From an uncultured bacterium (GTDB lineage: Bacteria; Patescibacteriota; Dojkabacteria; SC72): a stretch of 64,000 nucleotides of DNA. Shown one piece after another: positions 2,610 through 43,159 of this stretch. Within the stretch, counting starts at the first letter, position 1. Each line of letters starts with the position of its first letter. The notes beneath the pieces were generated by a model, which ran no database searches, had not been told where the DNA came from, and saw only the letters and a program-made list of their open reading frames with translations. The position numbers were made by a program, and so were the translations under genes. The stretch covers positions 36,687 to 100,686 of the forward strand of contig CAIVJR010000009.1 of the NCBI GenBank assembly GCA_903906305.1. The letters run 5' to 3'.

Positions 2610-4259
2610 ATGTTTGATTTCTTAAAGCCAAAGCACTTAGAATCTACTTCTACTAATAATATTGTGGATAAAAAGGATTTAGTTACTTTAATCATTTTAG
2701 ATGGTTTTGGTGTACATCCTGATCCTGTAGGTAATGCTGTGCTTGCTGCAAAGACTCCATTTCTTGATACTGCATGGACCTACGGAAGGTCTACTTTGAT
2801 ACATGCTTCAGGTACTCATGTGGGCTTACCTTCTGAGGAAGCTGGGAATAGTGAAGTTGGACATGTTAATCTCGGAGCTGGAAGTGTGGTGTATCAAACA
2901 TTACCAAGAATTAATGATGCTATTGAAGCCCATGACTTAGACAAAAACCCAGTTATAGCTGAGATGTTTCAAACAATTAAAAAGAAAGGTACCCATCTTC
3001 ATTTAACGGGAGTGTTGAGCGCGGCGGGCGTACATGGCCATATTAAGCATTTGTTTTCATTGTTAGAAATTTGTAAGGCGAATGGAATTGATCCATACAT
3101 TCATGTAATGCTTGATGGAAGAGACGCTCCTCCTCATGATGGATATTTGTACATGGATAAACTAAAACAGAAGATGAGAGAGTTGGGAATCGGTCATGTT
3201 GCTTCCATACAGGGTAGATTCTATGGAATGGATAGGGATAGTCGATGGGAGAGAACCAAATTGGCATATGATGCAATGATTGGTTTGGCAGAGGATAATT
3301 TTGAAGATCCAAGCGAAGCAATACAGAAAGCATATACCAATGGAGAAGATGATCAGTTTTTTAAACCAAGAATGTGTATACAGAATGGCCTTCCTTTGGG
3401 AGCAATTAAGGATGGAGATGCTGTACTCTTCTGGAATTTTAGAGAGGATAGGGCAAGACAGATAACCAAGGCGTTTGTAATGAAAGATTTTCCACATTTT
3501 AACAGACGTAACTATCCAAGGGATGTATATTTTGCAACAATGACTGGTTATGAGGAAGGGCTTACTGCACATGTAGTATTTCCACCTCAACCAGTTAGAA
3601 AATCGCTTTCTGAAACTTTAGCTGATTATGGCAAATCTCAATTCCATATCTCTGAAACCGAAAAACATATGCACGTGACATACTTCTTTAATGGTGGTGT
3701 GGAATTTACCCATCCGGGTGAGGTATTTTTCAATATCCCTTCTCCTAAAGTAGATGACTACTCGGTAGTTCCAGAGATGAGTGCGCTAACCATCACTGAT
3801 GAGACATTAAGAAAGATTCAAGATTTAAAGAAGAAATATTACAATTTCATACTCATTAACTATGCAAATCCTGATATGTTAGGCCATACAGGAGATTTTA
3901 ATGCTACAGTAAGAGGAAACGAGATAGTGGATCAGTGTGTTGCCAATGTCTCCAAAGCGGTATTAGGTGCAGGTGGAACGGTAATCATAACCGCAGATCA
4001 TGGAAACTGTGAGACGATGGTAAATAGGGTAACGGGCGAAATAGATATCGCGCATACAAATAACCCAGTTCCATTAACTATTCTTTCGAATCCAAGTGAG
4101 ATACAAACTAAAGTAGGTATCCCTGTTGTTAAAATTGGAACTGGACCAAAAGCCAAAGCTACGGGGTTACTAGCAGATTTAGCGCCAACATGTTTAGGCG
4201 TATTAGGAAATGATATTCCTGCAAATATGACAGGAGTCGATATACGAAAAATGTTATAG
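2610..4259 (+). CDS. gpmI: 2,3-bisphosphoglycerate-independent phosphoglycerate mutase (iPGM), copy 1
   Basis: Catalytic-Ser region ASGTHVGLP, NSEVGHVNLGAG, MLDGRDAPP, ITADHGNCE; 549 aa. Confidence 0.9.
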   Translation: MFDFLKPKHLESTSTNNIVDKKDLVTLIILDGFGVHPDPVGNAVLAAKTPFLDTAWTYGRSTLIHASGTHVGLPSEEAGNSEVGHVNLGAGSVVYQTLPRINDAIEAHDLDKNPVIAEMFQTIKKKGTHLHLTGVLSAAGVHGHIKHLFSLLEICKANGIDPYIHVMLDGRDAPPHDGYLYMDKLKQKMRELGIGHVASIQGRFYGMDRDSRWERTKLAYDAMIGLAEDNFEDPSEAIQKAYTNGEDDQFFKPRMCIQNGLPLGAIKDGDAVLFWNFREDRARQITKAFVMKDFPHFNRRNYPRDVYFATMTGYEEGLTAHVVFPPQPVRKSLSETLADYGKSQFHISETEKHMHVTYFFNGGVEFTHPGEVFFNIPSPKVDDYSVVPEMSALTITDETLRKIQDLKKKYYNFILINYANPDMLGHTGDFNATVRGNEIVDQCVANVSKAVLGAGGTVIITADHGNCETMVNRVTGEIDIAHTNNPVPLTILSNPSEIQTKVGIPVVKIGTGPKAKATGLLADLAPTCLGVLGNDIPANMTGVDIRKML

Positions 4260-5083: not shown

Positions 5084-5788
5084 ATGTTAATATTTAATAC
5101 CGTGATAGTCAAAAAATATATAAAAACTATTCTTCTAACACTCATCCTTGTAGGATATCTTTTTGTATCTCCTGCCAAAGCTATTGAACCAACATTCTCA
5201 TTGTATCCAGCTGGAGGTGTGGTGACTAACAAAGATAATGGATTTACTGTTGATGTAATGGTTGATTCTGCAGGAGAAGAATTGATATCTGCAAGATTTG
5301 TCATTACCTACGATCCAGCATATATAAAACTGAAGAAAGCAGAGAAGAATAATGCAATGTTTGCTCAATGGCCCGAGGATGAGACAAGTATAGATAACAC
5401 CAATGGTGTAGTCATGCTTACTGGCTTCTCACAATCTGGAACTGATACCTTGTATACAACTAAAGGTGATCCTGAGGTCATGGCTCGTCTTTCATTTGAG
5501 GTAGTTCAGCTAGGTAAAACATCCTTGGATTGGGAATTTTCAGGAAGTGATGATAGCTTTAAATCTGTGATGTTAACCGATGGAAGTCCTCCAATAAATG
5601 TATTAAAAACCAAACCAGTATCAGCAACATTTACAATTGAAAAAGAGATTGTAAATACAGCTATTCCTTGGAATAGGTATGTATTAATAGGAGGAATGGT
5701 ATTCATACTCTTTGGTGCTTTCATGATGTTCTCTAGACCTAAAGGTTTTGGAAAGAAAGGAACCGTAGTTATATATGAAGAAGAATAA
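5084..5788 (+). CDS. Secreted protein with C-terminal TM anchor, hypothetical (possible cohesin-like beta-sandwich)
   Basis: N-terminal signal peptide (LLTLILVGYLFVSPAKA), C-terminal hydrophobic helix plus basic tail; no catalytic motif recognised. Confidence 0.45.
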   Translation: MLIFNTVIVKKYIKTILLTLILVGYLFVSPAKAIEPTFSLYPAGGVVTNKDNGFTVDVMVDSAGEELISARFVITYDPAYIKLKKAEKNNAMFAQWPEDETSIDNTNGVVMLTGFSQSGTDTLYTTKGDPEVMARLSFEVVQLGKTSLDWEFSGSDDSFKSVMLTDGSPPINVLKTKPVSATFTIEKEIVNTAIPWNRYVLIGGMVFILFGAFMMFSRPKGFGKKGTVVIYEEE

Positions 5789-7018: not shown

Positions 7019-7095
7019 GCGAGAGTAGTTCAGTTGGCTAGAACGACACATTGCCAATGTGTAGGTCGCGGGTTCGAACCCCGTCTCTCGCTCCA
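7019..7095 (+). tRNA. tRNA-Gly(GCC), CCA encoded
   Basis: Acceptor GCGAGAG/CTCTCGC, anticodon stem-loop ACACA-TTGCCAA-TGTGT, GGTTCGAAC T-arm, U73 discriminator, CCA; 3 nt after tRNA-Phe. Confidence 0.8.
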
Positions 7096-7153
7096 TTTCT
7101 CAATATGTAACAAAAGGTTGTATAATTTCCCATCAAATTATATTGAATTAAAG

Positions 7154-8053
7154 ATGCAACAATTAGCACGATTCGGTGTAGCTGGTAATCCTCCACATTT
7201 CTGGGAATCAAAATATTCAAAGGAAAGAGCCAATTCTCCCGAATGGTTAGATAGTATTGGTTTAGATGCCTTAGAAATTCAATGTACATATGGTATTAGA
7301 ATGCCAGATGAGAGAGCAAAGATGTTTTTAGAAAATTCTAAAAAATATAATATTGCACTTTCTATACACGCACCTTACTACATAAATATTGGTGTTGAAA
7401 ATCAAAAAACACTAGATAATTCAGTAAGCGAAATACAGAAAGCTATTGTACTTTGCAAAAAGCTAGACACTAAAAAGATCATATTTCATCCAGGAGGAAT
7501 CCCAAAATCTAGAGAAGAGTCATGTAACAAGGCTATTAAAACTCTCAAACGAGTTGAAGCAGATCTTATTTCAAATGATGTTTATTTATATCCAGAAATA
7601 GGAGGAAAATGTGGTCAATTGGGATCTCTGGAAGATATTATATTCTTTTGTAAAAATGTAAAAAATGTATACCCATGTTTAGATCTAGCACATTTGCATG
7701 CACGAACCAATGGAACTCTATACACAAAACAAGATTTCTTGAATGTATTTAAAAAAGTAGAGAATGAATTGGGAAATGATGCCCTACATAAGATACATAT
7801 CCATATGTATCCTGTCGATTTCGGAACTGGTGGTGAAAAAGCTCATAAAGCATTTGATGATTTGAAAGATAACACTCAACTTATTCTTGGAAGTGATCAT
7901 ACGGAAGAAAGATATACTCCAAGATATGAGCCATTTATAGAAGCTATTACTGAAATGAAATTGTATCCAACAATTATTTGTGAAGCTAAAGATTCTCAAG
8001 ATGTTGGAGCTTTGGCGATGAAAAAGTATTATAAGGGCCTTAACCATAATTAA
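7154..8053 (+). CDS. Xylose-isomerase-like TIM-barrel protein, AP endonuclease family 2 (endonuclease IV-like); the track ORF from 7034 overlaps tRNA-Gly and is trimmed to the first ATG after it
   Basis: ALSIHAPYYINIG and KIIFHPGG resemble the Nfo HDSYLINLG / NFHPGS metal-binding segments; about 300 aa. Confidence 0.5.
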   Translation: MQQLARFGVAGNPPHFWESKYSKERANSPEWLDSIGLDALEIQCTYGIRMPDERAKMFLENSKKYNIALSIHAPYYINIGVENQKTLDNSVSEIQKAIVLCKKLDTKKIIFHPGGIPKSREESCNKAIKTLKRVEADLISNDVYLYPEIGGKCGQLGSLEDIIFFCKNVKNVYPCLDLAHLHARTNGTLYTKQDFLNVFKKVENELGNDALHKIHIHMYPVDFGTGGEKAHKAFDDLKDNTQLILGSDHTEERYTPRYEPFIEAITEMKLYPTIICEAKDSQDVGALAMKKYYKGLNHN

Positions 8054-20085: not shown

Positions 20086-20712
20086 CTAGAGGTTTGTATA
20101 TGTTTGATGTTGAGCAATTCTGAAGTTGCTAAAAGGGAAGTACACTATCCATGCTTTCCCCTTTATATTTGCTTTTTCAATTGGTCCAAATGATCTTGAA
20201 TCTGAGCTGTGTTGTCGATTATCTCCACAGGCAAAGTACTTTCCTTCAGGTACGGTTATGGTTTCTCCTTCATGGAGATATTCTCCACCATTGGAATATA
20301 CTGATGCATCCAAATATCCAGACTCATCTAATTCTGTTCCGTTCACGTATATATGTCCATCTTTAAGCATTACTTGATCTCCAGGTAAGCCAATTATTCT
20401 TTTGATGAAGTCTTGGGTATCTGAATATTTAAATATGATTACATCCCCTCGTTTTGGTTCTGAAAATTTGTATACCATCTTGTTGGCCATTAAGTATTCT
20501 CCATCTTTGTATGTTGGATACATAGAGCTTCCAATGACTTCATGGGGGGTCATTATGAAGAGGTAGAGTACAATGGAGATTACTAATGCAACGACTATTG
20601 TTTCTAGAAATGAGAGTAGGAATTGTCCTATGGATGTAAATGCTCCAGCTATTTTCTCTGTTCCAGTTACTTTTTGTTCTTCTGTTTCGTACATTATATG
20701 GCAGATATACAA
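20086..20712 (-). CDS. lepB: Signal peptidase I
   Basis: S26 motifs SSMYPT (catalytic Ser), KRIIGLPGD, GDNRQHSSDSR. Confidence 0.85.
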   Translation of the reverse strand: MYICHIMYETEEQKVTGTEKIAGAFTSIGQFLLSFLETIVVALVISIVLYLFIMTPHEVIGSSMYPTYKDGEYLMANKMVYKFSEPKRGDVIIFKYSDTQDFIKRIIGLPGDQVMLKDGHIYVNGTELDESGYLDASVYSNGGEYLHEGETITVPEGKYFACGDNRQHSSDSRSFGPIEKANIKGKAWIVYFPFSNFRIAQHQTYTNL

Positions 20713-23101: not shown

Positions 23102-24181
23102 TTATGCTATTTCATCAAGGAAAACATCTCCTTCTGATGATTCTTTTGCTGAGATGTAATATGTTCCTCTTCCTTGTCCTTTGGCTTTGATATATCCCTT
23201 TTCCACCATGTCCTGAAGGTCTCTGTATGAGGTCATGAATGATATCCCCATCATCTTAGTATATTTGTTCCTTGCTACCTTAAAGTTTACTGCAAGGTAA
23301 TCCAACAGTTTTATCTGTCTTGGATTGAGTAATACCTCTATAGCTCCTTGGTTTCTTACCTTTTTGATATGTGTTTCTTTGTATTCCTTTGAGACTTCAA
23401 TTGCACAGTATGACATTGCATACAGGAATGCTTCCAAGAACATTGTCAGATCGTGTTTACCTTTGGAGAGTTTGAATGCTGATGTTAGATCTTCACCAAT
23501 GTATTCTAATGCTTTGGCATATGGGAATATGTTGTCTGGGTTGTAACCATAGTTCTTTGCCAATATTTCTAATGTTAGGATTGCGGTCATCTGATTTCCT
23601 GCTAGGAATGGTGCTTTGTCTATGAACTCGTAGAGTAATATCCCCAGCTTTATGAGGAAGTGGTTGTGATCTTTTCCATTTTTAACCCATTCAAATACGT
23701 CATTGAAGTAGTCATGTGGATCTACATTTGGGTAGAAGTCTCTGAATTTGTACCATGTGTCATATATTTCGTTTGGTTTTTCACTAAATCCTCTTAGTTT
23801 GGCTAAATCCCAATCATCAGCAATATTCTTCATCAATATCTTGTTGATGTGTGTACTTAACTCTATGGATGGTTTTAATGCGTTAGTTAATCCATATGAG
23901 TTTATGAAGTCTTTTACGTTTCTGAAGTTTGTGAATATTTTAAGATTTTTTCTTTGTGATGGTTGTTCTTGTCCTCTTTGTATTTGTAATGCTTTGTTGT
24001 AACCTACTGGATATCCAATTATCTCTCCAAGTTTTTCTGTGTCTTCTGCATCATATTTCTCATGTAGTACTGATTTGTATTTTTCTGGTAATGGGTAGTG
24101 ATTTATATCTGCTACAGCTAACTCATATTTGATGAGGTAATTGAGTATGAGGCTTGTTATTGTGTATTGTGGTGTTTTCAT
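23102..24181 (-). CDS. Fic/Doc-family-like protein with a degenerate Fic motif and C-terminal winged helix (the track ORF extends to 24259 through a TTG start across tRNA-Thr; trimmed to the first ATG)
   Basis: APFLAGNQMTAI occupies the position of HPFx[DE]GNGRxxR, so the catalytic His and the Gly-Arg are replaced; C-terminal HTH-like segment (YTKMMGISFMTSYRDLQDMVEKGYI). Confidence 0.45.
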   Translation of the reverse strand: MKTPQYTITSLILNYLIKYELAVADINHYPLPEKYKSVLHEKYDAEDTEKLGEIIGYPVGYNKALQIQRGQEQPSQRKNLKIFTNFRNVKDFINSYGLTNALKPSIELSTHINKILMKNIADDWDLAKLRGFSEKPNEIYDTWYKFRDFYPNVDPHDYFNDVFEWVKNGKDHNHFLIKLGILLYEFIDKAPFLAGNQMTAILTLEILAKNYGYNPDNIFPYAKALEYIGEDLTSAFKLSKGKHDLTMFLEAFLYAMSYCAIEVSKEYKETHIKKVRNQGAIEVLLNPRQIKLLDYLAVNFKVARNKYTKMMGISFMTSYRDLQDMVEKGYIKAKGQGRGTYYISAKESSEGDVFLDEIA

Positions 24182-24201
24182 TTGTTTATATATATTTAAC
24201 A

Positions 24202-24274
24202 AGCTAATGGGTGGCCTCGAACCACCGACCTTTCCCTTACGAAGGGATTGCTCTACCAACTGAGCTACATCAGC
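24202..24274 (-). tRNA. tRNA-Thr(CGT), CCA not encoded
   Basis: Reverse complement GCTGATGTAGCTCAGTTGGTAGAGCAATCCCTTCGTAAGGGAAAGGTCGGTGGTTCGAGGCCACCCATTAGCT; anticodon loop TTCGTAA. Confidence 0.75.
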
Positions 24275-24404
24275 TTAATGTAACGATATTGTAACAAAGA
24301 GGGGGAGGGAAAACAAATTGAAAAGTGACTATAGGGTTGGTATAATCTTAACGGATTAAAAGCCGTGGGCTTTTAGCAAAATTGTTCTTTAGAAGGGAGC
24401 GGGA

Positions 24405-28727: not shown

Positions 28728-30065
28728 ATGATATCTAAGGTAGGGTTCGGAAGTAACGATATTAAATCTCAAACCGCCCAAACAGATCTGTATTCTAAAG
28801 AGCTCATATTTCAAGGAGCACTCAGATTCTTTTTGCATATTCCCAAAGATATAGACAAAAAAGCATTCAAGATAGCTAAAGATATACTTACAGAAATAGA
28901 AATATGGGAATTAGGATATGGGAATAAGAATTTTTCAAAGTTAAAAAACAATTCAATACTAGTAGGATATTTAGCATACAAATTTGGTGAACTCATAGGG
29001 CTGGATAAAAAGGAACTTTCAAATGTATATATTGCGGGTTTAGTACAGGACATAGGTAAGATATATATGTGTGATGGGAATAAAGCATTGGCATATGAAT
29101 ATATAACCTCACCATTAAAAAAAGGAGAAAAAGGATTTGATGAAATTGCTAAAGCATTAAAAAAATATCCATCGAAGACTAGAGAATATTTAGAAAAGAA
29201 AACTAAGCTAAACGGATATATTGTAGATTCAGCAACTAACTACCATGCAATATACAGTAATCTTTTTAAAGAAGGCTATCCCGATACTGACAAAGAAATA
29301 TCTCAATTAGATACGGTACTTTGGTTTGCAGATAGTTTAAGTGCTATTTCCTTTAGCAGTATTAATCAATTACAAAGAAACTACAGTAAGGATAGATACA
29401 TATCTTTGATTGAAGGATTTGAATTACTTAGAGAACAAACCGAAGAAAAGATTCCAAAGTTTTGGGGTAAAGCATCAAGTACTACTCTCATGAGTTTAGT
29501 ATTCACCATGATTATGGGTATGGTATCTACTTCTAAACTTCACGCCGCAAACTATACCTCTCAGGAGGTCATAGCCTTAGCTAATGAAGACAGAGCAACA
29601 TTGGGATTAGAACCATTAAATGCAGATGAGAAGCTTACCCAGGCGGCTCTAGACAAGGCAAGAGATATGCTGGAAAAGGGATACTGGGATCACTATGGTC
29701 CTAATGGTGAGACCCCATGGCAATTCATTAAGGGCAAAGGCTATGAATACAAAATAGCGGGGGAGAATCTAGCAAAGGGATATACTGATGCAAAGAAAAT
29801 GAATCAAGCATGGTTGAATAGTACAACTCACAGGGAGAATATTCTTAAACCCGAGTTCAACGAGATTGGTGTTGCTGTCGTAGATGGTACATTAGAAGGT
29901 CAGGATGTTACATTGGTTGTGCAGATGTTTGCTAAGGAAAAGGAAGAAACAAAAGTAGAGAGTACCAACAATGAGAGTTCAAATTTCCAGAGGAAAACAG
30001 AAGAGGGTATGTTGTTGAGTTTTAAGGATATATTGGAAAGGATAAGAGAACTTTTGAAGAGTTAA
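28728..30065 (+). CDS. Membrane protein: N-terminal HD/HDOD-like domain (degenerate), one TM helix, C-terminal extracytoplasmic CAP/SCP/PR1-like (YkwD-like) domain
   Basis: LVQDIGKIYM aligns with the HDIGK element of HD-type domains with His replaced by Gln; TM TLMSLVFTMIMGMVSTS; C-terminal GYWDHYGPNGE...HRENIL...FNEIGVAVV resembles CAP-domain motifs. Confidence 0.5.
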   Translation: MISKVGFGSNDIKSQTAQTDLYSKELIFQGALRFFLHIPKDIDKKAFKIAKDILTEIEIWELGYGNKNFSKLKNNSILVGYLAYKFGELIGLDKKELSNVYIAGLVQDIGKIYMCDGNKALAYEYITSPLKKGEKGFDEIAKALKKYPSKTREYLEKKTKLNGYIVDSATNYHAIYSNLFKEGYPDTDKEISQLDTVLWFADSLSAISFSSINQLQRNYSKDRYISLIEGFELLREQTEEKIPKFWGKASSTTLMSLVFTMIMGMVSTSKLHAANYTSQEVIALANEDRATLGLEPLNADEKLTQAALDKARDMLEKGYWDHYGPNGETPWQFIKGKGYEYKIAGENLAKGYTDAKKMNQAWLNSTTHRENILKPEFNEIGVAVVDGTLEGQDVTLVVQMFAKEKEETKVESTNNESSNFQRKTEEGMLLSFKDILERIRELLKS

Positions 30066-32206: not shown

Positions 32207-35200
32207 CTACTTTATATTTTTCTCTTTGTCCTCTTCTTCTTTTCTTCTTCTAGCAATTAAGAAGATTATGAAGGAGAGGAGTGATACTCCACCGATTACA
32301 TATACCCACCATGGAATTGGTTTTCCATCGGCTTCTTCGTTATTGGTATCTTGTGTACCTTTTACTTCTTCCTGATTTACAGGAGAGGATGTTTCTTCCT
32401 CTTCTTCAGTGGTTTCTACTCCTTGAACTGCTTCTGGTGTAACTTCAGCTACTGTTGCTGCACCTCTTACTGCTTGCTGAGGTACTGCTGCAACTATCAC
32501 ACTTGATGCATATGGATCATTTCCTTCAACTATTGTATTGGAATCACTTCTATTTCCAGCTGTATCTACTACATAGTATGTGAAGATATGCGTTCCTACA
32601 CTTAATGTATTGATTAAAGCTGTTATATCCCAACTGTAACCTGTTCCAAACAATGGTAAGCAGGTTTGGGTGTTTGTATCTATTACATAACAGACTTGAG
32701 AGAGCTCGGTGTTATCACTTAATGCTAGGGATCTTGGTGTTGTATCTCCTGTTGTGAATGTAGTTGCTGCTAATACCTGAGCCAAAGGATTTGTCTTATC
32801 AATCTTTACTACTTCGGATGTTTGTACTGCTTCAACATTCCCAGCCATATCCTCTGAGTAGAATGTTATCGTGTTCAAACCTTCTTCAGAAACTGTTACT
32901 GTATTTCCAATCTGTTCTGTACCACCATTGACTGAATAGTGTGTTAGGTAACATCCACTTCCATCAATGTCTGTACATGTTAAGGTTACTGTTACATCAG
33001 TGTTATGCCATTGCGAATCGATACCTGATGCTGTGGTTACAGGTGCAAGCATAGGGGTTGTGTATTCTGTGTATGGTGTGACTGACATTATATTTCCTGC
33101 TAAATCATGTACATTCTGTACTCCCCATTGTTGTTCTGGAGATAGGTACCAACCTGCGTTTAAGAATGTAACTGTAGCTGTGTTTGTTTCTGAATCATAA
33201 GTGATTGAAGCATCACCTAACAAATCTCCTGTCCCTCCAGCGGTTGGCCAGTTATTCAAGAAGTAATTTGTTGGGTTTGTTGCATCCGCCTCGTTCATTG
33301 GTTCACTAAATACAGCTTTGAAACCAGTTGCTGATGGGCTTGGAATGTCAAATATTAAGTCAACAGTTGGAGCTGTGTTATCAACATTAACGGTTAACCA
33401 TTCAACAGATCCAGCATCCTTATTATTTGCTGCATCTCTAGCTTCTAACTTGATGGTATATTGACCATCAGGAAGTGAGGTTGTATTCCAGTTTAAAAGT
33501 AGTTTATCTGTGAAAGAAGTAGTGTCATTAACAGTTCCTGGTCCTGCTACTTTTGTGCCACTACTATTTGTAATGACAAACCAGTAGTGATGTGGATTTG
33601 TATCAGTTACTGTTCCTCTAACTTCTATTGTAGCTGAAAGATGAGTAGATGTTGGAGAGGTGATCTCTACATCTGGTGCGGTTGTATCTACAATTAATGA
33701 ACCATAGTGGGTGGTAGAGGTTATGTTTCCTGCGTTATCTAATGTTCTAATATTGAAATACCAAATACCATCTGAAAGCACAGGGCTTGTTACATTGGTT
33801 GTCCCAACAGGTAACCAGTTTGAAGGAGAGATTATTGGTGTCTCTGGAGTATTTGAGAATGAGTAGTAGTATCCGGCAACACCACTAATTGCATCAGATG
33901 CTCCACTAAAGGTTATATCAATTGTATTATCATTCTTTGGTGTGTTTAAGGAGTGTGATGCTACAAAGGATGTTGGGTCTTGTGGTAATTGATTGTCCCA
34001 TATAAATGAGTCAGCAATTCCTGTTCCTGGGAGGGCGTGTACTTGATCCCATGCATAAGGAGTGAATGTGTATGTGACTCCATTTTGCAATGCAGGAAGA
34101 GTCTTCGTTAATGTCCAATTCTCATTTCCTGAGACATTGTGCAACATTGGGATAACTGTCCATGTATTTCCTATTAACCAATATCTGTTATTACTACTTC
34201 TCTTAAGCGTAACCATTACATTTGTTATTTCACTTACTGTATCTGAAGCTACACCTTTTACAAGAGGGAGGCTGTTAGGACCATAGAATGGGTTATCTAT
34301 GATTGTTTGAGATTGTGGTAAATTCTTATCTACCTTTCTTTCTACAATATTTGAAACAACTGTATTTCCAGCATTATCTTTAACCTTTGCGCTAATCTCT
34401 AATCCGGCGTTATCAAATAACTGGTTACTTGGTACACCAAATGTACATCTATTTCCTACAAGCGTTCCATTGCTCCACGTTGTTCCATTTAGTGTGTACA
34501 TACATGAAGTATGATCAATTCCACTTAATGAATCAGATACGGGTACGGTTATTAAGAAGCCTGTTTGTCCATTTACATACTTACTTAAATAGTCAACAAC
34601 GATATTTACATTTCCAATAGTAGGAAGAGTTGTATCATATGTGATATTTGTCATCATAGGGCTATGTTCCATATTCCCTGCGGTATCAATGCCTTCGGCT
34701 TTTATGTCAAATGTCCCTTCATATGGAGGGGTCCATTCATATCCCCAGTCAAATGGTAATGAGCTTGAGGTGTTATCTATTGAATCTATATAAGTCCAAT
34801 CAGAGGATAGGTCTGAGTTTCTGAAATACAAACTTACCGAAGATACATTATTTGCATCTGTAGATGTTCCTAATATATTTATTGCAGATCCGTTATTTGA
34901 ATTTGAAAGATTATTTCCAAACAATGAAACTGGAGCTATATTGTCTACAGTTATTTTCCAGGCATCTGTCCATGCTGATTTGTTTCCAGCATTATCGACA
35001 GCTTGTACTCTCCACCAGAAAGTAGCGTCAGCAACATTTACAGCTGTTTTGCTTGTTGTAGTAAAGGTTTGGCTCCATCTCAAGCTAGTTAGGTTTGAGT
35101 CATTGTAGCTTTCATAATTATAGTAAGCTACATCTGTGCTGGTATCTGACCAAACATTAGTTACTGAAGCACCATTTACATATACTCCGTCAGAAGGTGA

Positions 35201-37339
35201 TACTAAAACAGGAGTTGCTGGAGCTGTCTGATCATAGTAATAATGTACCCACTCACTCCAAACTCCTTCATTTCCTGCATTATCGAATGCTTGTACTCTG
35301 AAACTTACTCCGCCTTGTTCACTGATACTGGGAGTATGGTTTCTTTGGCTTGCTGTTGTTGTTCTGTATGGTGCTCCTGAGAATGTATGACCATCATCGT
35401 ATTTATATTCAATTCGGTACAATTGTATTCCTGATGGATCTGATACATCAGTCCAATCATTTAGAATAGTGTTGACATTAAAGTATTGTTCTGGTGTTGG
35501 AGATACAATTATTGGGGCTTCTGGCCCTGTTTTATCGTATGTGATTTCACAGAGAGATGTCCAATCTGAGACATTACCGGCTTTATCCTTTGCTCTTACC
35601 TTTATCTGGTGTAGTCCTTCATTTAAAGTTCCTGTATATTGTGAATTTGCAAAGAAGGAATTCCAAGTTCCTTGTCCACCAGTTGGGAGGGGATAGTTAA
35701 TGCTGTAATCATATCCGGCCAATGCGAAATTATCGGTAGAATCGTTCCAATCTACTGTATTAACTCCAACATTAGTAACTGCTCCACATGAGAACACAGG
35801 ATTTGAGAATCTAAGATTTTGTGGTATTGCAGGTACAGTATTATCTACTGTAATCTTCCATGCATCTGTCCATGAGCTTTCATTTCCAATTCCATCTATT
35901 GCCTTTACGTGCCAGTAATATTCCCCTTCTGGAGTCCCAGTTGTTGATATCTGAGAATCAGAAAGTGGAGATGAGGTGTAAACGGGTGATACAAAAGAAC
36001 CATCAGGATTTAGGCTTGGTGAAAGTGAAGATTGATATATGTATGATACAGGAGAGGAAGGATCTGTCACGGTAGTCCAATCGATTAATGTCTGAGAGGC
36101 TGTAGTTTTGAAACTATTATTCTCAGGGGATATGTGAGTAGGGATATCTACACTTCGATCAATCTCTAGACATCCAGTAACATTAAATGTGTAAGGCATA
36201 TTGACGGCATTATAATTATCCCAACCAGGGATTGCTCCATATGCAAACTCGCCCCATGTATATGCACTTGTTCCTTTTTTTACACCATATATATCTGAGA
36301 TTGCAGTATCGCCTTCAACACTTAAGGATATGGTACCGCTTGATATTGCCATTGTTAAATCGAGTATTCCATCTACTGGTATTGTGTAATCTCTGAAATT
36401 GCTTACAATTTCTCCACCTTGGTTTCCATCAGAAGGGCCAATTCTTACAAGTGTAGATGTTCGTCTAAAAATATATGCGTAAGCACCGCTCTGGTATCCA
36501 GTTTTTCCAGTTTCTAATAATCCTTTATCAAGTAAACCTACCATTGAAACTGCCCCTATAGGCATTGAATTAACATCTATTGTCCCAGTAAATATGGTTG
36601 CCGTATTATTTGGATCACAAACATAGGCTGGGTTACCCCATTGATATGCGTGAGAATATATTGATGGTGCTGTGCTACCTACATATCTTAAATACCAATT
36701 TCCAGCAGTAGAACTAGAGTCTTCAATTACTCCGACAGAACCTTCAAATGTAACAACAAATATGGTGAAATGGTCTAAATTGCTGATGGTTAATAAACTA
36801 CCATTCCCCACAACATTCTTAATATCTTTTGCATCTACTAATCCACTAACATTCTCAGCATATATAACCTTAGTATTATCTCCAACCTTAGGTAATGTAA
36901 GATCATATTCAAATGAACCATCCGTCATATCCGTTGTAATATCATATGCAACATCCGAAGCCGCATTAGTTGCTTTAACCTGTTCATCTGTTAGATATAT
37001 TGTTTTGATTGTAAGCGTACTTGAAACAGCAGGAAGTTTGGAGAAGGTAACAGTAACTGCAGGATTAATAGGGTAGGTATATGTCTCTCCAATTACAACA
37101 GGAGAAGAAGTAGTAGCAGATTCCCCAGAAGTCATCCATGTAGGCTTTGCAATCTCCTCAGGATCTGAAATACCCTCATCAAGAATATCTCCCTCAGTAT
37201 CAGTTACTACTGATTCGGTTGAAGCAGCATCCTGCACAGGCATAAGGGATTCTATGGCTAGAAGAGGTTGAGCAAATGTAAACAAAATGAGGAATGCAGA
37301 GGTAAATAACCTCAAACCGAAAGTAGAAGATCTCTTCAT
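32207..37339 (-). CDS. Giant (1710 aa) cell-surface protein with signal peptide, many Ig-like/Big/FN3-like repeats and a C-terminal TM anchor plus basic tail
   Basis: Signal MKRSSTFGLRLFTSAFLILFTFAQPLLA; recurring repeat endings DNAGNxS...W(T/S)(D/E)...TVDNTxP (e.g. SSWTDAWKITVDNTVP, SAWTDAWKITVDNIAP, WSEWVHYYYDQTAP); C-terminal WWVYVIGGVSLLSFIIFLIARRRKEE. Confidence 0.8.
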   Translation of the reverse strand: MKRSSTFGLRLFTSAFLILFTFAQPLLAIESLMPVQDAASTESVVTDTEGDILDEGISDPEEIAKPTWMTSGESATTSSPVVIGETYTYPINPAVTVTFSKLPAVSSTLTIKTIYLTDEQVKATNAASDVAYDITTDMTDGSFEYDLTLPKVGDNTKVIYAENVSGLVDAKDIKNVVGNGSLLTISNLDHFTIFVVTFEGSVGVIEDSSSTAGNWYLRYVGSTAPSIYSHAYQWGNPAYVCDPNNTATIFTGTIDVNSMPIGAVSMVGLLDKGLLETGKTGYQSGAYAYIFRRTSTLVRIGPSDGNQGGEIVSNFRDYTIPVDGILDLTMAISSGTISLSVEGDTAISDIYGVKKGTSAYTWGEFAYGAIPGWDNYNAVNMPYTFNVTGCLEIDRSVDIPTHISPENNSFKTTASQTLIDWTTVTDPSSPVSYIYQSSLSPSLNPDGSFVSPVYTSSPLSDSQISTTGTPEGEYYWHVKAIDGIGNESSWTDAWKITVDNTVPAIPQNLRFSNPVFSCGAVTNVGVNTVDWNDSTDNFALAGYDYSINYPLPTGGQGTWNSFFANSQYTGTLNEGLHQIKVRAKDKAGNVSDWTSLCEITYDKTGPEAPIIVSPTPEQYFNVNTILNDWTDVSDPSGIQLYRIEYKYDDGHTFSGAPYRTTTASQRNHTPSISEQGGVSFRVQAFDNAGNEGVWSEWVHYYYDQTAPATPVLVSPSDGVYVNGASVTNVWSDTSTDVAYYNYESYNDSNLTSLRWSQTFTTTSKTAVNVADATFWWRVQAVDNAGNKSAWTDAWKITVDNIAPVSLFGNNLSNSNNGSAINILGTSTDANNVSSVSLYFRNSDLSSDWTYIDSIDNTSSSLPFDWGYEWTPPYEGTFDIKAEGIDTAGNMEHSPMMTNITYDTTLPTIGNVNIVVDYLSKYVNGQTGFLITVPVSDSLSGIDHTSCMYTLNGTTWSNGTLVGNRCTFGVPSNQLFDNAGLEISAKVKDNAGNTVVSNIVERKVDKNLPQSQTIIDNPFYGPNSLPLVKGVASDTVSEITNVMVTLKRSSNNRYWLIGNTWTVIPMLHNVSGNENWTLTKTLPALQNGVTYTFTPYAWDQVHALPGTGIADSFIWDNQLPQDPTSFVASHSLNTPKNDNTIDITFSGASDAISGVAGYYYSFSNTPETPIISPSNWLPVGTTNVTSPVLSDGIWYFNIRTLDNAGNITSTTHYGSLIVDTTAPDVEITSPTSTHLSATIEVRGTVTDTNPHHYWFVITNSSGTKVAGPGTVNDTTSFTDKLLLNWNTTSLPDGQYTIKLEARDAANNKDAGSVEWLTVNVDNTAPTVDLIFDIPSPSATGFKAVFSEPMNEADATNPTNYFLNNWPTAGGTGDLLGDASITYDSETNTATVTFLNAGWYLSPEQQWGVQNVHDLAGNIMSVTPYTEYTTPMLAPVTTASGIDSQWHNTDVTVTLTCTDIDGSGCYLTHYSVNGGTEQIGNTVTVSEEGLNTITFYSEDMAGNVEAVQTSEVVKIDKTNPLAQVLAATTFTTGDTTPRSLALSDNTELSQVCYVIDTNTQTCLPLFGTGYSWDITALINTLSVGTHIFTYYVVDTAGNRSDSNTIVEGNDPYASSVIVAAVPQQAVRGAATVAEVTPEAVQGVETTEEEEETSSPVNQEEVKGTQDTNNEEADGKPIPWWVYVIGGVSLLSFIIFLIARRRKEEEDKEKNIK

Positions 37340-37521
37340 GAATTAAAAAGACATTTAATTTATGTTAAGAAGTTTTACTTTGAAAATAGTCGCCGCAAAA
37401 CCTCTCTGTACAGATCGGTTTCGCCATTAGCTCCTCTTGATTCATATAGCGACCAAAACGGAATCAAGTATCAATGCCCCTGTCCTATAACATACAATTT
37501 TTAAAATGGAAAATCAATACC

Positions 37522-40997: not shown

Positions 40998-41633
40998 ATG
41001 ATTCAGACATTAATTGATTGGTTAGTAAATATCATTGAAACAATTGGATATCCCGGAGTTATGCTTTCGATGTTCATTGAAAGTTTCTTTGCTCCAATAC
41101 CAAGCGAACTAATTCTTCCATTCTCAGGGTTTGTTGCTTCAAATGGATCATTAAATATATATTTAACGATAGTTTTAGCTTCCATTGCCGCATATCTAGG
41201 TACCTTACCCTTTTACTTTATTGGTAAATGGGGGAAAGAGAAAGTTGATTTGTTCTTTAGAAAATTTGGTAAATACCTATTTATCAAGGAAGAGGATTTG
41301 GACAAAGGCTATGCAATTTTTGCAAAGCATGGAAACAAGGTAGTATTTTTCGGAAGATTAATCCCTATTGTTAGGACTATTATTTCATTTCCAGCAGGTG
41401 TTGCGGATATGAATTTTGCGCTATTTAGTGCATATACATTAGCTGGAACCTTGATATGGTCTTCATTATTGGCTGGAGCGGGATATTTGCTTGGGGATAA
41501 TTGGGATGTTGTAAGGGGATATATCTCAAAATATGAAAAGGTGATTATTGTTATTGGGATATTGTTTGTAGCCTTGTTCATAGCCAAGGGAATCTATGAT
41601 CTTGTTAAGCGAAAACAAGGAAAGAAAGTCTAG
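40998..41633 (+). CDS. DedA family membrane protein (second copy)
   Basis: YPGVMLSMFIESFFAPIPSELILPFSGF, the canonical DedA N-terminal motif. Confidence 0.7.
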   Translation: MIQTLIDWLVNIIETIGYPGVMLSMFIESFFAPIPSELILPFSGFVASNGSLNIYLTIVLASIAAYLGTLPFYFIGKWGKEKVDLFFRKFGKYLFIKEEDLDKGYAIFAKHGNKVVFFGRLIPIVRTIISFPAGVADMNFALFSAYTLAGTLIWSSLLAGAGYLLGDNWDVVRGYISKYEKVIIVIGILFVALFIAKGIYDLVKRKQGKKV

Positions 41634-43159
41634 GTAGTCCTAATTAAAGACTGGCCATTCATTTCACTTGGTTTGGTAATTCCCATTATATCCAAGACTG
41701 TTGGAGCTATATCCTTTAATGATCCATATGGCAAAAACCTATTGTTTATATTTGTTCCTGCAATTATACATGGGACGGGATTTAACGAATGTTCTGTATC
41801 TACAGTACCATTTTCCAAATTTATCATCTCTTCTACATTCCCATGATCTGCGGTTATTATCACTGCACCCCCTTGACTCAAAAATTGATTAACCAGTTGA
41901 TGGGTACAGTAATCTACAGTCTGTACCGCCTTTATACCTGCATTTAATACACCTGTATGCCCAACCATATCTGCATTAGCAAAGTTCACTAGTGTAAAGT
42001 CATATGATTTTCCAGCAATAGCTTTTGAAAGTACACTTAACAATTGTGGTGCACTCATCTCTGGTTTTAAATCGTAGGTTGCAACTTGTGGTGATGGTAT
42101 AGCTACCTGATCTTCATTGGCATACACTACTGAAGCTCCACCATTGAAGAAGTATGTTACGTGAGGGAATTTCTCTGTTTCTGCGATTCTTAGTTGTCTG
42201 AAACCAACAGAATCAATTACTTTTCCTAGTGGAAGATTAACATACTGCTTAGGAAATACTACATGGGTAGGGAATCCTTTACTATATTCCACCATACCTA
42301 CAAAAAAGAGATTTTGTATATTGTCTCTTTTAAAATTACTAAAATTGGGAGCTGCAAATGCTTGGGCCAATTGTAGCGCTCTATCTGGTCTAAAATTCAA
42401 GAAGATTATGACATCATTGGTTTGTACCTTACTTTCATTGATTACAATTGGTTCCATGAACTCATCTGTTACACCTTTTTGGTAATATGTATCGATAGCT
42501 TCTCCATAGGTTGTGAATTTTTGTCCTATGTTTCTAGTAAGTAAGTAGTAGGCTCTTTGAGTTCTATCCCATTGATTATTCCTATCCATTGCAAAATATC
42601 TTCCAACTATTGTTCCAATCTTTCCAATTCCTTTGTCCATACAGTAATTATCCATATCTGTGAGATACTTAAGTGCAGCATTAGGGGGAGTGTCTCTTCC
42701 ATCGGTGAAAGCATGGATATATGTATTGTTTTCAAAATTTGATTTAGCAAGGAAATCTATGGCAGCCTTGAAGTGATCTATGTGTGAATGGGTAGATCCA
42801 TCGCTGAGTAATCCTATGAGATGGATGTTGCTTTTGTAGGTTTGGGCGTGTGCAAGTGCTGCTCTTAAGGTGTCGTTAGTATATATCATTCCCTTGGCTA
42901 TGGCATTGTTAATTCTTGGTAATGTCTGTGCCACTACATTGCCTGCTCCAAGGTTCAAATGTCCAACTTCGCTGTTTCCTCTTACATTTTTAGGCAGTCC
43001 AACCGCTTCACCAGAGGCCAAGAGGTATGTATGTGGGTATATATTCCAGAGTGTAGAAAGTTTCTGTGGATTAGCTAAAACTACCGCATTGCCGCTGTTT
43101 TTAGGGGCTGCACCGAGGCCATCTAAGACTATCATTAGAACTTTTTGTTTAGCATTCAT
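41630..43159 (-). CDS. gpmI: 2,3-bisphosphoglycerate-independent phosphoglycerate mutase (iPGM), copy 2, divergent paralogue
   Basis: LDGLGAAP, ASGEAVGLP (catalytic Ser), NSEVGHLNLGAG, FTDGRDTPP, ITADHGNVE; 509 aa. Confidence 0.85.
   Translation of the reverse strand: MNAKQKVLMIVLDGLGAAPKNSGNAVVLANPQKLSTLWNIYPHTYLLASGEAVGLPKNVRGNSEVGHLNLGAGNVVAQTLPRINNAIAKGMIYTNDTLRAALAHAQTYKSNIHLIGLLSDGSTHSHIDHFKAAIDFLAKSNFENNTYIHAFTDGRDTPPNAALKYLTDMDNYCMDKGIGKIGTIVGRYFAMDRNNQWDRTQRAYYLLTRNIGQKFTTYGEAIDTYYQKGVTDEFMEPIVINESKVQTNDVIIFLNFRPDRALQLAQAFAAPNFSNFKRDNIQNLFFVGMVEYSKGFPTHVVFPKQYVNLPLGKVIDSVGFRQLRIAETEKFPHVTYFFNGGASVVYANEDQVAIPSPQVATYDLKPEMSAPQLLSVLSKAIAGKSYDFTLVNFANADMVGHTGVLNAGIKAVQTVDYCTHQLVNQFLSQGGAVIITADHGNVEEMINLENGTVDTEHSLNPVPCIIAGTNINNRFLPYGSLKDIAPTVLDIMGITKPSEMNGQSLIRTT

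What the first reader, a model, noticed from the sequence alone, without database searches (positions are those of the whole stretch)
32207..37339. 1710-aa Ig-repeat surface giant with C-terminal anchor
Signal peptide, a long array of repeats sharing the motif DNAGNxS..W..W.ITVDNT.P (at least five clear copies), and a C-terminal TM helix followed by an RRRKEEEDKEK tail. Giant Ig-like surface proteins are candidates for host or partner attachment in episymbiotic small-genome bacteria. The acidic N-terminal region (ESVVTDTEGDILDEGISDPEE) may be a distal binding tip.
Basis: partly seen in the sequence, partly recalled or inferred. Interest (0 to 1): 0.5.

Follow-up and report, generated by a model that had tools for sequence, protein, structure and literature searches.

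The report
Riboswitch-controlled giant adhesin with self-cleaving cap
A tiny-genome (Patescibacteria) bacterium encodes a 1710-residue membrane-anchored surface fibre, probably for attachment, that sits behind a c-di-GMP-type riboswitch and carries at its far tip a domain that looks like the self-cleaving GAIN/ZU5 modules of animal adhesion receptors.

Summary
A 1710-aa ORF lies at 32207-37339 on the minus strand. It has an N-terminal signal-like segment, about 12 roughly 100-aa beta-sandwich modules and a C-terminal TM helix plus RRRKEEEDKEK tail. Ten modules carry the D-x-[AG]-x-N motif, and nine clearly pass a leave-one-out test. One repeat models as an FN3-like sandwich (pLDDT 94.7).

Verdict: a riboswitch-regulated modular adhesin, a new variant of known kinds. 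Ligand identity, self-cleavage and binding target are inferred, not shown.

The parts
37489..37517 (-). Promoter-like region read by eye: -35-like TTGATT (37517-37512), 17-nt spacer, -10-like TATGTT (37494-37489)
   Evidence: Sequence. The TATTGA(C)TT block is conserved in all orthologous and paralogous leaders. The strict consensus scan found no promoter, so this is a weak inference.
37404..37489 (-). c-di-GMP-II-like riboswitch aptamer (best Rfam model RF03169, c-di-GMP-II-GAG). P1 5' strand 37485-37479, pseudoknot loop GGUCGC 37454-37449, GGAGC 37434-37430, pseudoknot 3' strand GCGAAACC 37424-37417, P1 3' strand 37414-37408
   Evidence: 41.7 bits against gathering 40, full-length model match. 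The same hit lies upstream of syntenic orthologues. In a 34-sequence class alignment, 13 of 18 predicted pairs show compensatory changes. Coordinates.
37340..37403 (-). Candidate expression platform. GGUUUUGC (37402-37395) pairs with the aptamer strand GCGAAACC (hairpin 1). Alternative hairpin AGAGGUUUU (37405-37397) : AAAACUUCU (about 37376-37368). Start-codon helix CAU/AUG and CUUCUU/AAGAG
   Evidence: MFE folds (hairpin 1 -17.1 kcal/mol). Near-invariant in orthologues and in front of a paralogous giant. Chloroflexota relatives of the aptamer have true terminators built on the same aptamer strand. No canonical terminator was found here.
32207..37339 (-). Coding sequence of the 1710-aa giant surface protein (stop codon 32207-32209)
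37253..37339 (-). Signal-peptide-like N-terminus (aa 1-29: MKRSSTFGLRLFTSAFLILFTFAQPLLAI)
   Evidence: Hydropathy. 144 of 156 long family members have the same feature. A type I signal peptidase gene lies at 20086-20712. Cleavage is not predicted by any tool.
37133..37252 (-). Acidic low-complexity linker (aa 30-69; 11 D+E, 1 K+R)
   Evidence: family-wide composition.
36743..37132 (-). Conserved N-terminal beta-sandwich domain (aa ~70-199), GAIN/ZU5-like, with a candidate autoproteolysis motif H190-F191-T192 (36764-36772)
36119..36742 (-). Linker plus ConA-like jelly-roll module (aa 200-407), the candidate ligand- or glycan-binding head. This is the variable cassette.
33362..36118 (-). FN3/Big_13-type repeats R1-R9 (aa 408-1326). 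R7 is a divergent type.
32510..33361 (-). Three further Ig-like modules R10-R12 (aa 1327-1610). R11 and R12 are OmpL47-type.
   Evidence: NCBIfam barrel_OmpL47 best stretch 1447-1510. Leave-one-out scores 17.6 and 16.9 bits for R11 and R12. R10 is conserved at 58-78% in many relatives.
32318..32509 (-). Acidic C-terminal linker (aa 1611-1674) with two copies of a short (A/E)V(Q/K)G(V/T) motif
32249..32317 (-). C-terminal transmembrane helix (aa 1675-1697)
   Evidence: Hydropathy. Conserved KPIPWWVY..GG..LLSFIIFLIARRRKEEE in orthologues.
32210..32248 (-). Charged cytoplasmic tail RRKEEEDKEKNIK (aa 1698-1710)

Best explanation
The locus is one regulatory and structural unit of a Patescibacterium: a second-messenger riboswitch that controls a giant modular surface adhesin. 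SHOWN: the ORF and its repeats; the FN3-like fold of a repeat; the C-terminal TM helix and basic tail; a leader that matches the c-di-GMP-II-GAG model, is far better conserved than neighbouring genes and belongs to a class with covarying helices; a conserved N-terminal domain with an invariant H-[F/M/L]-T; a variable ConA-like module. INFERRED MECHANISM: (1) The aptamer binds c-di-GMP or a related signalling nucleotide. Binding locks GCGAAACC into the pseudoknot with GGUCGC. The downstream GGUUUUGC then cannot form the anti-aptamer hairpin, and the mRNA is completed or translated (ON switch). This is the logic seen in Chloroflexota relatives, where that hairpin is a true terminator. (2) The protein is exported by Sec and stays anchored by its C-terminal TM helix, with the basic tail inside the cell. 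(3) About 12 FN3/Ig-like modules form a stalk of tens of nanometres that holds the ConA-like head and the N-terminal domain away from the cell. (4) The N-terminal GAIN/ZU5-like domain cleaves itself between F191 and T192. The acidic N-terminal fragment stays bound non-covalently as a cap that force or ligand binding can remove. (5) The head cassette is exchanged between strains, which changes binding specificity.
For: Protein: ORF, hydrophobic ends, motif; leave-one-out repeat test; Big_13, Big_3_3, OmpL47-type domain above cut-offs; repeat profile against PDB: titin FN3 1.5e-09, chitinase A1 FN3 1.8e-08, SiiE; pLDDT 94.7; FN3 and bacterial Ig top hits. Riboswitch: RF03169, 41.7 bits, full length, conserved cores; same hit in 6 related loci; leader 96-97% identical, flanking genes 77-86%; 13 of 18 pairs with compensatory changes; relatives score 43-65 bits for RF03169 or RF01786; same leader in front of a paralogous giant, L156/L160/L165; terminators sharing the aptamer strand in Chloroflexota; the class precedes mostly secreted or surface proteins, 53 of 81 with an N-terminal hydrophobic segment. 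Known c-di-GMP-II riboswitches precede 'surface anchor protein' genes in Paraclostridium (PMC9481103). N-domain: fold; invariant H and T; 193/196 with the motif; 806 representatives, always within the first ~370-430 residues. Bacterial GAIN-like MAIN domains cleave F|S in HFS, and the fragments stay associated (bioRxiv 10.64898/2026.05.12.724683). Head module.
Against: The Rfam score is only 1.7 bits above gathering. All orthologous leaders are near-identical, so covariation comes from the wider class and not from this lineage. The ligand of the GAG variant is not established (my knowledge of Weinberg et al. 2017, which I could not read here). No GGDEF, EAL or other cyclase motif lies in the 64-kb window. 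No canonical terminator or SD sequence is present, so the ON/OFF direction and the level of control are guesses. For the N-domain I saw no residue-level superposition. Foldseek on the two-domain model ranked only ConA-like folds, so assigning the ZU5/GAIN hits to the N-domain rests on confidence, size and the motif. The domain order is the reverse of 'virtually all' MAIN proteins, so self-cleavage would not release the ectodomain. No sequence link to MAIN, ZU5 or GPS families was detected. Adhesion itself and any target are untested.
Confidence: 0.6

Rival explanations
1. The N-terminal domain is an ordinary, non-cleaving beta-sandwich. H-F-T is conserved for folding or for binding, and the protein is a single-chain fibre.
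For: No sequence relation to GAIN, ZU5 or MAIN families. Foldseek did not list them. The N-terminal position makes the 'release of ectodomain' logic of MAIN proteins inapplicable. Some ZU5 domains (ankyrin, UNC5) do not cleave (my knowledge).
Confidence: 0.3
2. The leader is not a ligand-sensing riboswitch here. The Rfam hit is a degenerate or borrowed aptamer, and the leader is conserved because it is a promoter/UTR cassette, a protein-binding site or an sRNA.
For: Score 41.7 against 40. Outer P1 pairs are mismatched. No terminator or SD sequestration of a standard kind. No cyclic-dinucleotide enzymes in the window.
Against: Full-length match with every conserved core, including both pseudoknot strands. 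The P2 sequence is different from relatives yet still paired. 96-97% conservation extends through aptamer and platform, also in front of a different gene. A downstream segment complementary to the pseudoknot strand mirrors real terminators in relatives.
Confidence: 0.12
3. The protein is chiefly a surface-tethered enzyme or nutrient-scavenging device. Its ConA-like module would be a GH16/PL7-type glycanase or a CBM feeding the cell, rather than a cell-cell adhesin.
For: ConA-like hits include PL7 alginate lyases, GH16 glucanases and the beta-sandwich modules of GH32/GH43 enzymes. MAIN proteins are enriched in glycoside hydrolases. Orthologues carry beta-helix modules.
Against: Similarity is at fold level only (4-14% identity), with no family hit in Pfam. 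Lectins, galectins and laminin-G score equally well. No catalytic motif was examined.
Confidence: 0.15
4. It is a structural envelope or S-layer-like component with no specific partner.
For: A repetitive Ig-like stalk, a TM anchor and wide distribution in Patescibacteria.
Against: Signal-dependent regulation, a strain-variable head cassette and one copy per locus fit an adhesin better than a constitutive lattice protein.
Confidence: 0.08

Closest known systems
c-di-GMP-II riboswitches (Rfam RF01786) and the c-di-GMP-II-GAG variant (RF03169) in front of adhesin, pilus or surface-anchor genes in Clostridia
   Same: Aptamer architecture (P1, P2, pseudoknot GGUCGC: GCGA-ACC). Position in the 5' leader of a large surface protein gene. 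Probable ON logic through competition for the aptamer's 3' strand.
   Different: The host is a Patescibacterium. The best model is the GAG variant, whose ligand is not established. No canonical terminator or SD is present. The leader is a cassette shared by two different giant genes.
MAIN domains (microbial GAIN domains; Brogan & Rudner, bioRxiv 2026, 10.64898/2026.05.12.724683) and eukaryotic GAIN/ZU5/FIIND autoproteolytic domains
   Same: Beta-sandwich fold related to GAIN_B/ZU5. H-hydrophobic-(S/T) in the turn before the last strand, followed by a hydrophobic strand. Occurrence on large secreted, cell-anchored proteins with FN3, Ig and lectin modules.
   Different: The domain is at the N-terminus, right after the signal peptide and an acidic linker, about 1500 residues from the anchor. 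MAIN proteins have the order SP - ectodomain - MAIN - anchor. Thr replaces Ser. The anchor is a TM helix, not a sortase or SLH signal. A separate sequence family of 806 representatives with no detectable sequence link. Cleavage is untested.
Giant non-fimbrial adhesins built of Ig-like repeats (SiiE, MpIBP, Embp, Mobiluncus adhesin)
   Same: Long tandem array of ~100-aa beta-sandwich modules presenting a distal binding module. SiiE BIg domains are among the sequence and fold hits.
   Different: No T1SS/RTX C-terminus and no LPXTG. Sec signal plus a C-terminal TM anchor. Much shorter (about 12 modules). Riboswitch control.
Leptospira OmpL47 (NCBIfam NF047441) and the OmpL47-type domain NF047446
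   Same: The domain model NF047446 matches 5 stretches (113.6 bits, cut-off 40).
   Different: The whole-protein equivalog fails (57 bits, cut-off 250). Only the domain type is shared.

Membership tests
FN3 / bacterial Ig-like (Big_13) repeat proteins | Tandem ~100-aa modules that pass the family profile threshold | tested here: met
   Big_13 54.1 bits (cut-off 27), 4 stretches. Leave-one-out HMM significant for 9-10 modules.
FN3 / bacterial Ig-like (Big_13) repeat proteins | Seven-stranded beta-sandwich fold | tested here: met
   AF2 pLDDT 94.7, all-beta. Foldseek top hits are FN3 modules and a bacterial Ig domain, TM about 0.65-0.73. Profile against PDB: titin and ChiA1 FN3.
Sortase (LPXTG) cell-wall-anchored proteins | LPXTG-type motif just before the C-terminal TM helix and basic tail | tested here: not met
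   No LPXTG in the window protein or its orthologues. TIGR01167 scores 13.7 bits, below the 15.9 cut-off, and covers only the TM and tail. No sortase gene in the window.
c-di-GMP-II-GAG riboswitch (RF03169) | Covariance-model score at or above the gathering threshold over the full model | tested here: met
   41.7 bits against 40, model positions 1-86 of 86. The margin is narrow.
c-di-GMP-II-GAG riboswitch (RF03169) | P1/P2 helices and pseudoknot strands supported by covariation | tested here: met
   Alignment A2: 13 of 18 pairs with compensatory changes. The window's P2 is different in sequence but paired. The pseudoknot strands are invariant, so they are uninformative.
c-di-GMP-II-GAG riboswitch (RF03169) | Variant-specific binding-site nucleotides, as distinct from canonical c-di-GMP-II | tested here: inconclusive
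   Rfam clan competition prefers GAG. Sequences with the same 3' core split 14:4 between RF03169 and RF01786. The defining paper could not be read.
c-di-GMP-II-GAG riboswitch (RF03169) | Ligand binding and ligand-dependent gene control | not testable with these tools
   Needs in-line probing or ITC and reporter assays.
MAIN / GAIN autoproteolytic domains | GAIN_B/ZU5-like beta-sandwich fold | tested here: met
MAIN / GAIN autoproteolytic domains | Conserved H-X(hydrophobic)-(S/T) in the beta-turn before the last strand | tested here: met
   H190-F191-T192 lies between model strands 182-188 and 193-198. H and T invariant in 80/80. Motif present in 193/196.
MAIN / GAIN autoproteolytic domains | Domain order: signal peptide - ectodomain - MAIN - anchor | tested here: not met
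   The domain ends at residue 199 of 1710. Family median end is 270, maximum 429.
MAIN / GAIN autoproteolytic domains | Sequence homology to YfkN MAIN (PSI-BLAST family) | not tested
The exhaustive profile search found a closed family of 806, with 768 at or below 1e-10, and no Pfam or PDB link.
MAIN / GAIN autoproteolytic domains | Actual self-cleavage, with fragments remaining associated | not testable with these tools
   Needs protein expression, T192A/H190A mutants and Edman or mass spectrometry.
T1SS/RTX giant adhesins (SiiE, LapA, MpIBP) | C-terminal RTX repeats and T1SS signal, no Sec signal peptide | tested here: not met
   The protein has an N-terminal signal-like segment and a C-terminal TM helix. 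The NCBIfam Ca_tandemer hit has E 0.12 only.
Leptospira OmpL47 (NF047441 equivalog) | Whole-protein score at or above 250 bits | tested here: not met
   57 bits. Only the domain model NF047446 passes.

The most novel reading that the evidence does not exclude
In Patescibacteria an orphan nucleotide-sensing riboswitch (the GAG variant, with a ligand other than c-di-GMP) times the deployment of giant host-attachment fibres. Their distal tip is a pre-cleaved GAIN-like 'breakaway' cap. Pulling or ligand binding strips the acidic N-terminal fragment and exposes the hydrophobic new N-terminus T-I-F-V-V-T-F next to a strain-specific lectin head. This would be an adhesion-GPCR-like tethered peptide used at the far end of the fibre to engage the host envelope, rather than to signal inward.
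Probability: 0.1. Interest if true: 0.9.

Novelty: new variant of a known kind. Interest (0 to 1): 0.62.

Why it matters
How ultra-small episymbiotic bacteria recognise and hold on to hosts, and how they decide when to do so, is largely unknown. This locus gives three testable handles.

(1) A riboswitch of a variant class without an established ligand sits in front of two different giant surface proteins, in a lineage for which I found no paper on c-di-GMP signalling. Identifying its ligand would reveal a signalling pathway in CPR bacteria.

(2) A family of 806 representative sequences has a GAIN/ZU5-like domain with an invariant H-F-T at the distal end of the fibre. This is the reverse of the arrangement just reported for bacterial MAIN domains. 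If it cleaves, it extends that mechanism to a new topology and a new function.

(3) A head cassette is swapped between otherwise syntenic strains. That is a plausible determinant of host range.

Tried and rejected
- **Sortase anchoring:** rejected. There is no LPXTG, the TIGR01167 hit is below its cut-off, and no sortase gene lies nearby.
- **Repeat-number variation as the cause of the length differences (1710 against 2029-2124 aa):** rejected. There are 9-11 repeat hits in every orthologue. The difference lies in the head region between the N-domain and the repeat array.
- **Acidic N-terminus as a binding tip:** rejected in favour of a generic linker.
- **Sequence-level link of the N-domain to known families:** none found. 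Pfam at E up to 10, NCBIfam, and PDB by single sequence and by profile gave only noise.
- **Independent fold check by Foldseek on the two-domain model:** it returned only ConA-like, laminin-G and galectin folds. The AFDB library was not available.
- **Consensus promoter/terminator scan of the leader:** nothing found.
- **GGDEF/EAL/HD-GYP motifs and Pfam annotation of the rest of the window:** only housekeeping genes.
- **Literature:** Weinberg et al. 2017 (which defines the GAG variant) could not be read. No paper in the library combines Patescibacteria/CPR with c-di-GMP or riboswitches.
- **First-pass ORF calling downstream of aptamers in high-GC genomes:** unreliable, so it was redone with the longest ORF.
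Full report
**1. The observation**

The window holds a 1710-codon ORF at 32207..37339, on the minus strand. The product starts with a basic and hydrophobic segment, MKRSSTFGLRLFTSAFLILFTFAQPLLA. It ends with a 23-residue hydrophobic helix (aa 1675-1697) and the tail RRRKEEEDKEKNIK.

The motif D[NTK]AGN occurs seven times. With the variants DGIGN, DAANN and DMAGN there are about ten copies spaced roughly 100 residues apart.

I tested the repeats without circularity. I built a profile from eight core repeats and scored the ninth against 200 shuffles of itself.
- R1-R5, R8, R9, R11 and R12 score 17-50 bits, with shuffle maxima of 8-17.
- R6 is marginal.
- R7 and R10 are other module types.

Pfam Big_13 and Big_3_3 and the NCBIfam OmpL47-type domain pass their cut-offs.

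**2. Organism and family**

An identical protein and about 100 relatives come from metagenomes. Every named relative is Patescibacteria/CPR, such as Moranbacteria, Pacebacteria and Dojkabacteria. The window is 32-39% G+C and otherwise encodes housekeeping genes: ftsQ/A/Z/W, parAB, gatA/B, dnaE, uvrC, RF-1 and a signal peptidase.

Five relatives (P0002, P0004, P0005, P0006, P0009; 2038-2124 aa) are syntenic. The gene order is UvrD-like helicase, leader, giant, PAP2, amidase.

**3. The repeats are FN3-like sandwiches**

A profile of 50 repeats matches FN3 domains of titin (1.5e-09), chitinase A1 (1.8e-08) and RPTP-delta. It also matches the BIg domains of the giant adhesin SiiE.

Repeat R4 modelled with that alignment has pLDDT 94.7 and is all-beta. 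Its Foldseek neighbours are FN3 modules and a bacterial Ig domain. With about 12 modules the ectodomain should be a rod some tens of nanometres long. That length is inferred from typical module sizes.

**4. A riboswitch in the leader**

Rfam finds one non-tRNA element in the window. It is c-di-GMP-II-GAG (RF03169) at 37404-37489 on the minus strand, 64 nt upstream of the giant's ATG. The score is 41.7 bits (gathering 40) over the full model, and all conserved cores are present: GGUCGC, GGAGC and UGGCGAAACCGA. Because the margin is small, I looked for independent support.

(a) *Conservation in orthologues.* The same hit lies upstream of the syntenic orthologues. From the aptamer to the ATG the leader is 96-97% identical. 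By contrast, the helicase 3' end is 85% identical, the first 590 nt of the giant 69-88%, and PAP2 77-82%.

(b) *Covariation in the wider class.* A pattern scan of species-representative genomes found at least 119 loci with the aptamer core. They are mostly Actinomycetota and Chloroflexota, plus one Saccharibacterium. An alignment of the window's aptamer with 33 of them gives P1, a short GC helix and P2. Compensatory double changes occur in 13 of 18 pairs. The window's P2 is entirely different in sequence yet still paired.

(c) *Strength of relatives.* Rfam scores 18 of these relatives at 43-65 bits. Fourteen score best as GAG and four as canonical c-di-GMP-II, so the two models form a continuum.

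(d) *A second giant gene.* A metagenome scan found the same leader cassette in front of a paralogous giant in low-GC contigs (L156, L160, L165). That protein starts MKKVSLKILQKV..., has 11-16 FN3-like repeats and has no N-domain.

(e) *What the class regulates.* Elsewhere the class precedes mainly secreted or surface proteins: TasA/camelysin-like, SpaA-type, collagen-like, subtilases, and large proteins of 827-1520 aa. Of 81 downstream ORFs, 53 have an N-terminal hydrophobic segment. Published c-di-GMP-II riboswitches likewise precede 'surface anchor protein' genes (PMC9481103).

**5. Expression platform (inferred)**

Directly after the aptamer, GGUUUUGC (37402-37395) is complementary to the aptamer's pseudoknot strand GCGAAACC (37424-37417). 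The resulting hairpin has -17.1 kcal/mol and dominates the MFE fold.

In Chloroflexota relatives the equivalent hairpin is a true terminator, for example AAACCGACCTCAGGGTCGGTTTTTT. That implies ON logic. The ligand holds the strand in the pseudoknot, and the terminator cannot form.

In the window the U-tract is displaced, and no canonical terminator or promoter is found. If the pseudoknot strands are held unpaired, AGAGGUUUU pairs with AAAACUUCU. Otherwise CUUCUU and CAU can pair with AAGAG and AUG at the start codon. Most genes here lack an SD sequence, so start-codon accessibility may be the controlled step. The direction and the level of control are not established.

**6. The N-terminal domain**

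Residues ~70-199 have no Pfam, NCBIfam or PDB sequence match. Even so, the domain occurs near the N-terminus of about 80 of the 100 relatives.

An exhaustive profile search finds a closed family of 806 representatives, 768 of them at or below 1e-10. In all 150 best hits the domain lies in the first ~370 residues.

These are the folds that self-cleave at H/S-hydrophobic-S/T (my knowledge).

The domain ends ...SNLDHF-TIFVVTF. H190-F191-T192 sits in the turn between the last two strands.
- H190 and T192 are invariant in 80/80 sequences, and only one other residue is invariant.
- Position 191 is F in 76, M in 3 and L in 1.
- In 196 members the motif is present in 193.

A May 2026 preprint shows that bacterial GAIN-like 'MAIN' domains cleave between F and S of HFS and stay associated. 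It also reports that virtually all have the order SP - ectodomain - MAIN - anchor. Patescibacteria are not mentioned. Here the order is reversed: SP, acidic linker, domain, then about 1500 residues, then the anchor.

Caveats:
- I did not see residue-level superpositions.
- Foldseek on the two-domain model lists only ConA-like folds.
- Cleavage is untested.

**7. The head cassette**

This module is absent from all syntenic orthologues. In its place they carry beta-helix, DUF4625 or other modules, about 500 aa in all. It is present at 44-65% identity in non-syntenic proteins.

At the DNA level the gene is a mosaic:
- conserved 5' end (aa 1-196)
- unalignable head
- 65-70% identical repeats
- conserved 3' end

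Repeat counts are similar, at 9-11.

**8. Anchor**

Orthologues share KPIPWWVY..GG..LLSFIIFLIARRRKEEE. None has LPXTG, and the LPXTG model is below its cut-off. The simplest reading is a type I membrane anchor.

**9. Synthesis**

The acidic 'tip' is a generic linker.

What is really there is a regulated device with these parts:
- a c-di-GMP-II-type (GAG variant) riboswitch leader
- a membrane-anchored FN3 stalk
- an exchangeable lectin-like head
- a distal GAIN/ZU5-like domain with the hallmark of self-cleavage

Each part has a known relative. The combination, the host lineage and the inverted position of the GAIN-like domain are new. I rate it a new variant of known kinds, with interest 0.62.

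Noticed in passing
window 32318-32509 (aa 1611-1674); C-termini of P0002-P0060: A short motif (A/E)V(K/Q/L)G(A/T/E) recurs once to several times in the acidic linker 15-40 residues before the C-terminal TM helix. Examples are EVKGT, AVQGV, EVLGA and QVLGE. It occurs in many unrelated-looking Patescibacterial giants and may be a processing or wall-attachment signal.
   Followed up: partly
P0010, P0015, P0042, P0045, P0057, P0060 (C-termini): Some N-domain family members end in a conserved multi-hydrophobic module instead of a single TM helix plus basic tail (...LRNPDCFTQGSGL..NNWF....GLAAKL.GK.LFEE). This is an alternative anchor type.
   Followed up: no
L156:1297-7030, L160, L165: A paralogous giant (1632 aa, 16 FN3-like repeat hits, N-terminus MKKVSLKILQKVFTS, no GAIN-like N-domain) carries the same riboswitch leader cassette. 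This suggests a small regulon of giant surface proteins.
   Followed up: partly
L012, L043, L045, L072, L078, L093, L100, L107, L114, L125, L128: An actinobacterial sub-type of the aptamer has an extra hairpin and a rearranged 5' half (...GATCCG...CACCGAC...GCACGGAGACA...). Where scored, the Rfam RF03169 matches are 115-129 nt long.
   Followed up: no
L097:3659-3741 and 7855-7938; L161:963-1000 and 5333-5370: Two separate aptamers of this class sit on one contig. Where read, each precedes TasA/camelysin-like genes with SipW-type signal peptides (A-F/Y-W/F-S/T).
   Followed up: no
window-wide (upstream regions listed): Most genes lack a recognisable Shine-Dalgarno sequence. Only 2 of 19 inspected have an AGG/GGA-rich stretch. 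This is relevant to how the riboswitch could control translation.
   Followed up: partly
window 2610-4259 (+) and 41630-43159 (-): There are two paralogous cofactor-independent phosphoglycerate mutase (iPGM) genes within 40 kb.
   Followed up: no
window 28728-30065 (+): A 445-aa protein has a CAP (cysteine-rich secretory protein) domain and a weak HDOD-like match (E 1.9e-4, below cut-off). A CAP-domain gene is also adjacent in the orthologous locus L003.
   Followed up: no
window 5084-5788 (+): A 234-aa protein has a cohesin-domain match (24.4 bits, cut-off 24.1), next to a group-1 glycosyltransferase.
   Followed up: no
window 7034-8053 (+) and 23102-24259 (-): The mechanical ORF starts overlap tRNA genes (tRNA-Gly 7019-7095; tRNA-Thr 24201-24275). 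The real start codons of the AP-endonuclease-like and Fic-like genes must lie further in.
   Followed up: no
L139:2228-2267 and downstream: This is a more divergent copy of the leader (79% identical). Its P2 is lengthened by a compensatory G-C pair, and it has a U-to-A change that falls in the loop of the alternative hairpin. The downstream ORF is broken at 82 aa (frameshift or assembly error).
   Followed up: partly
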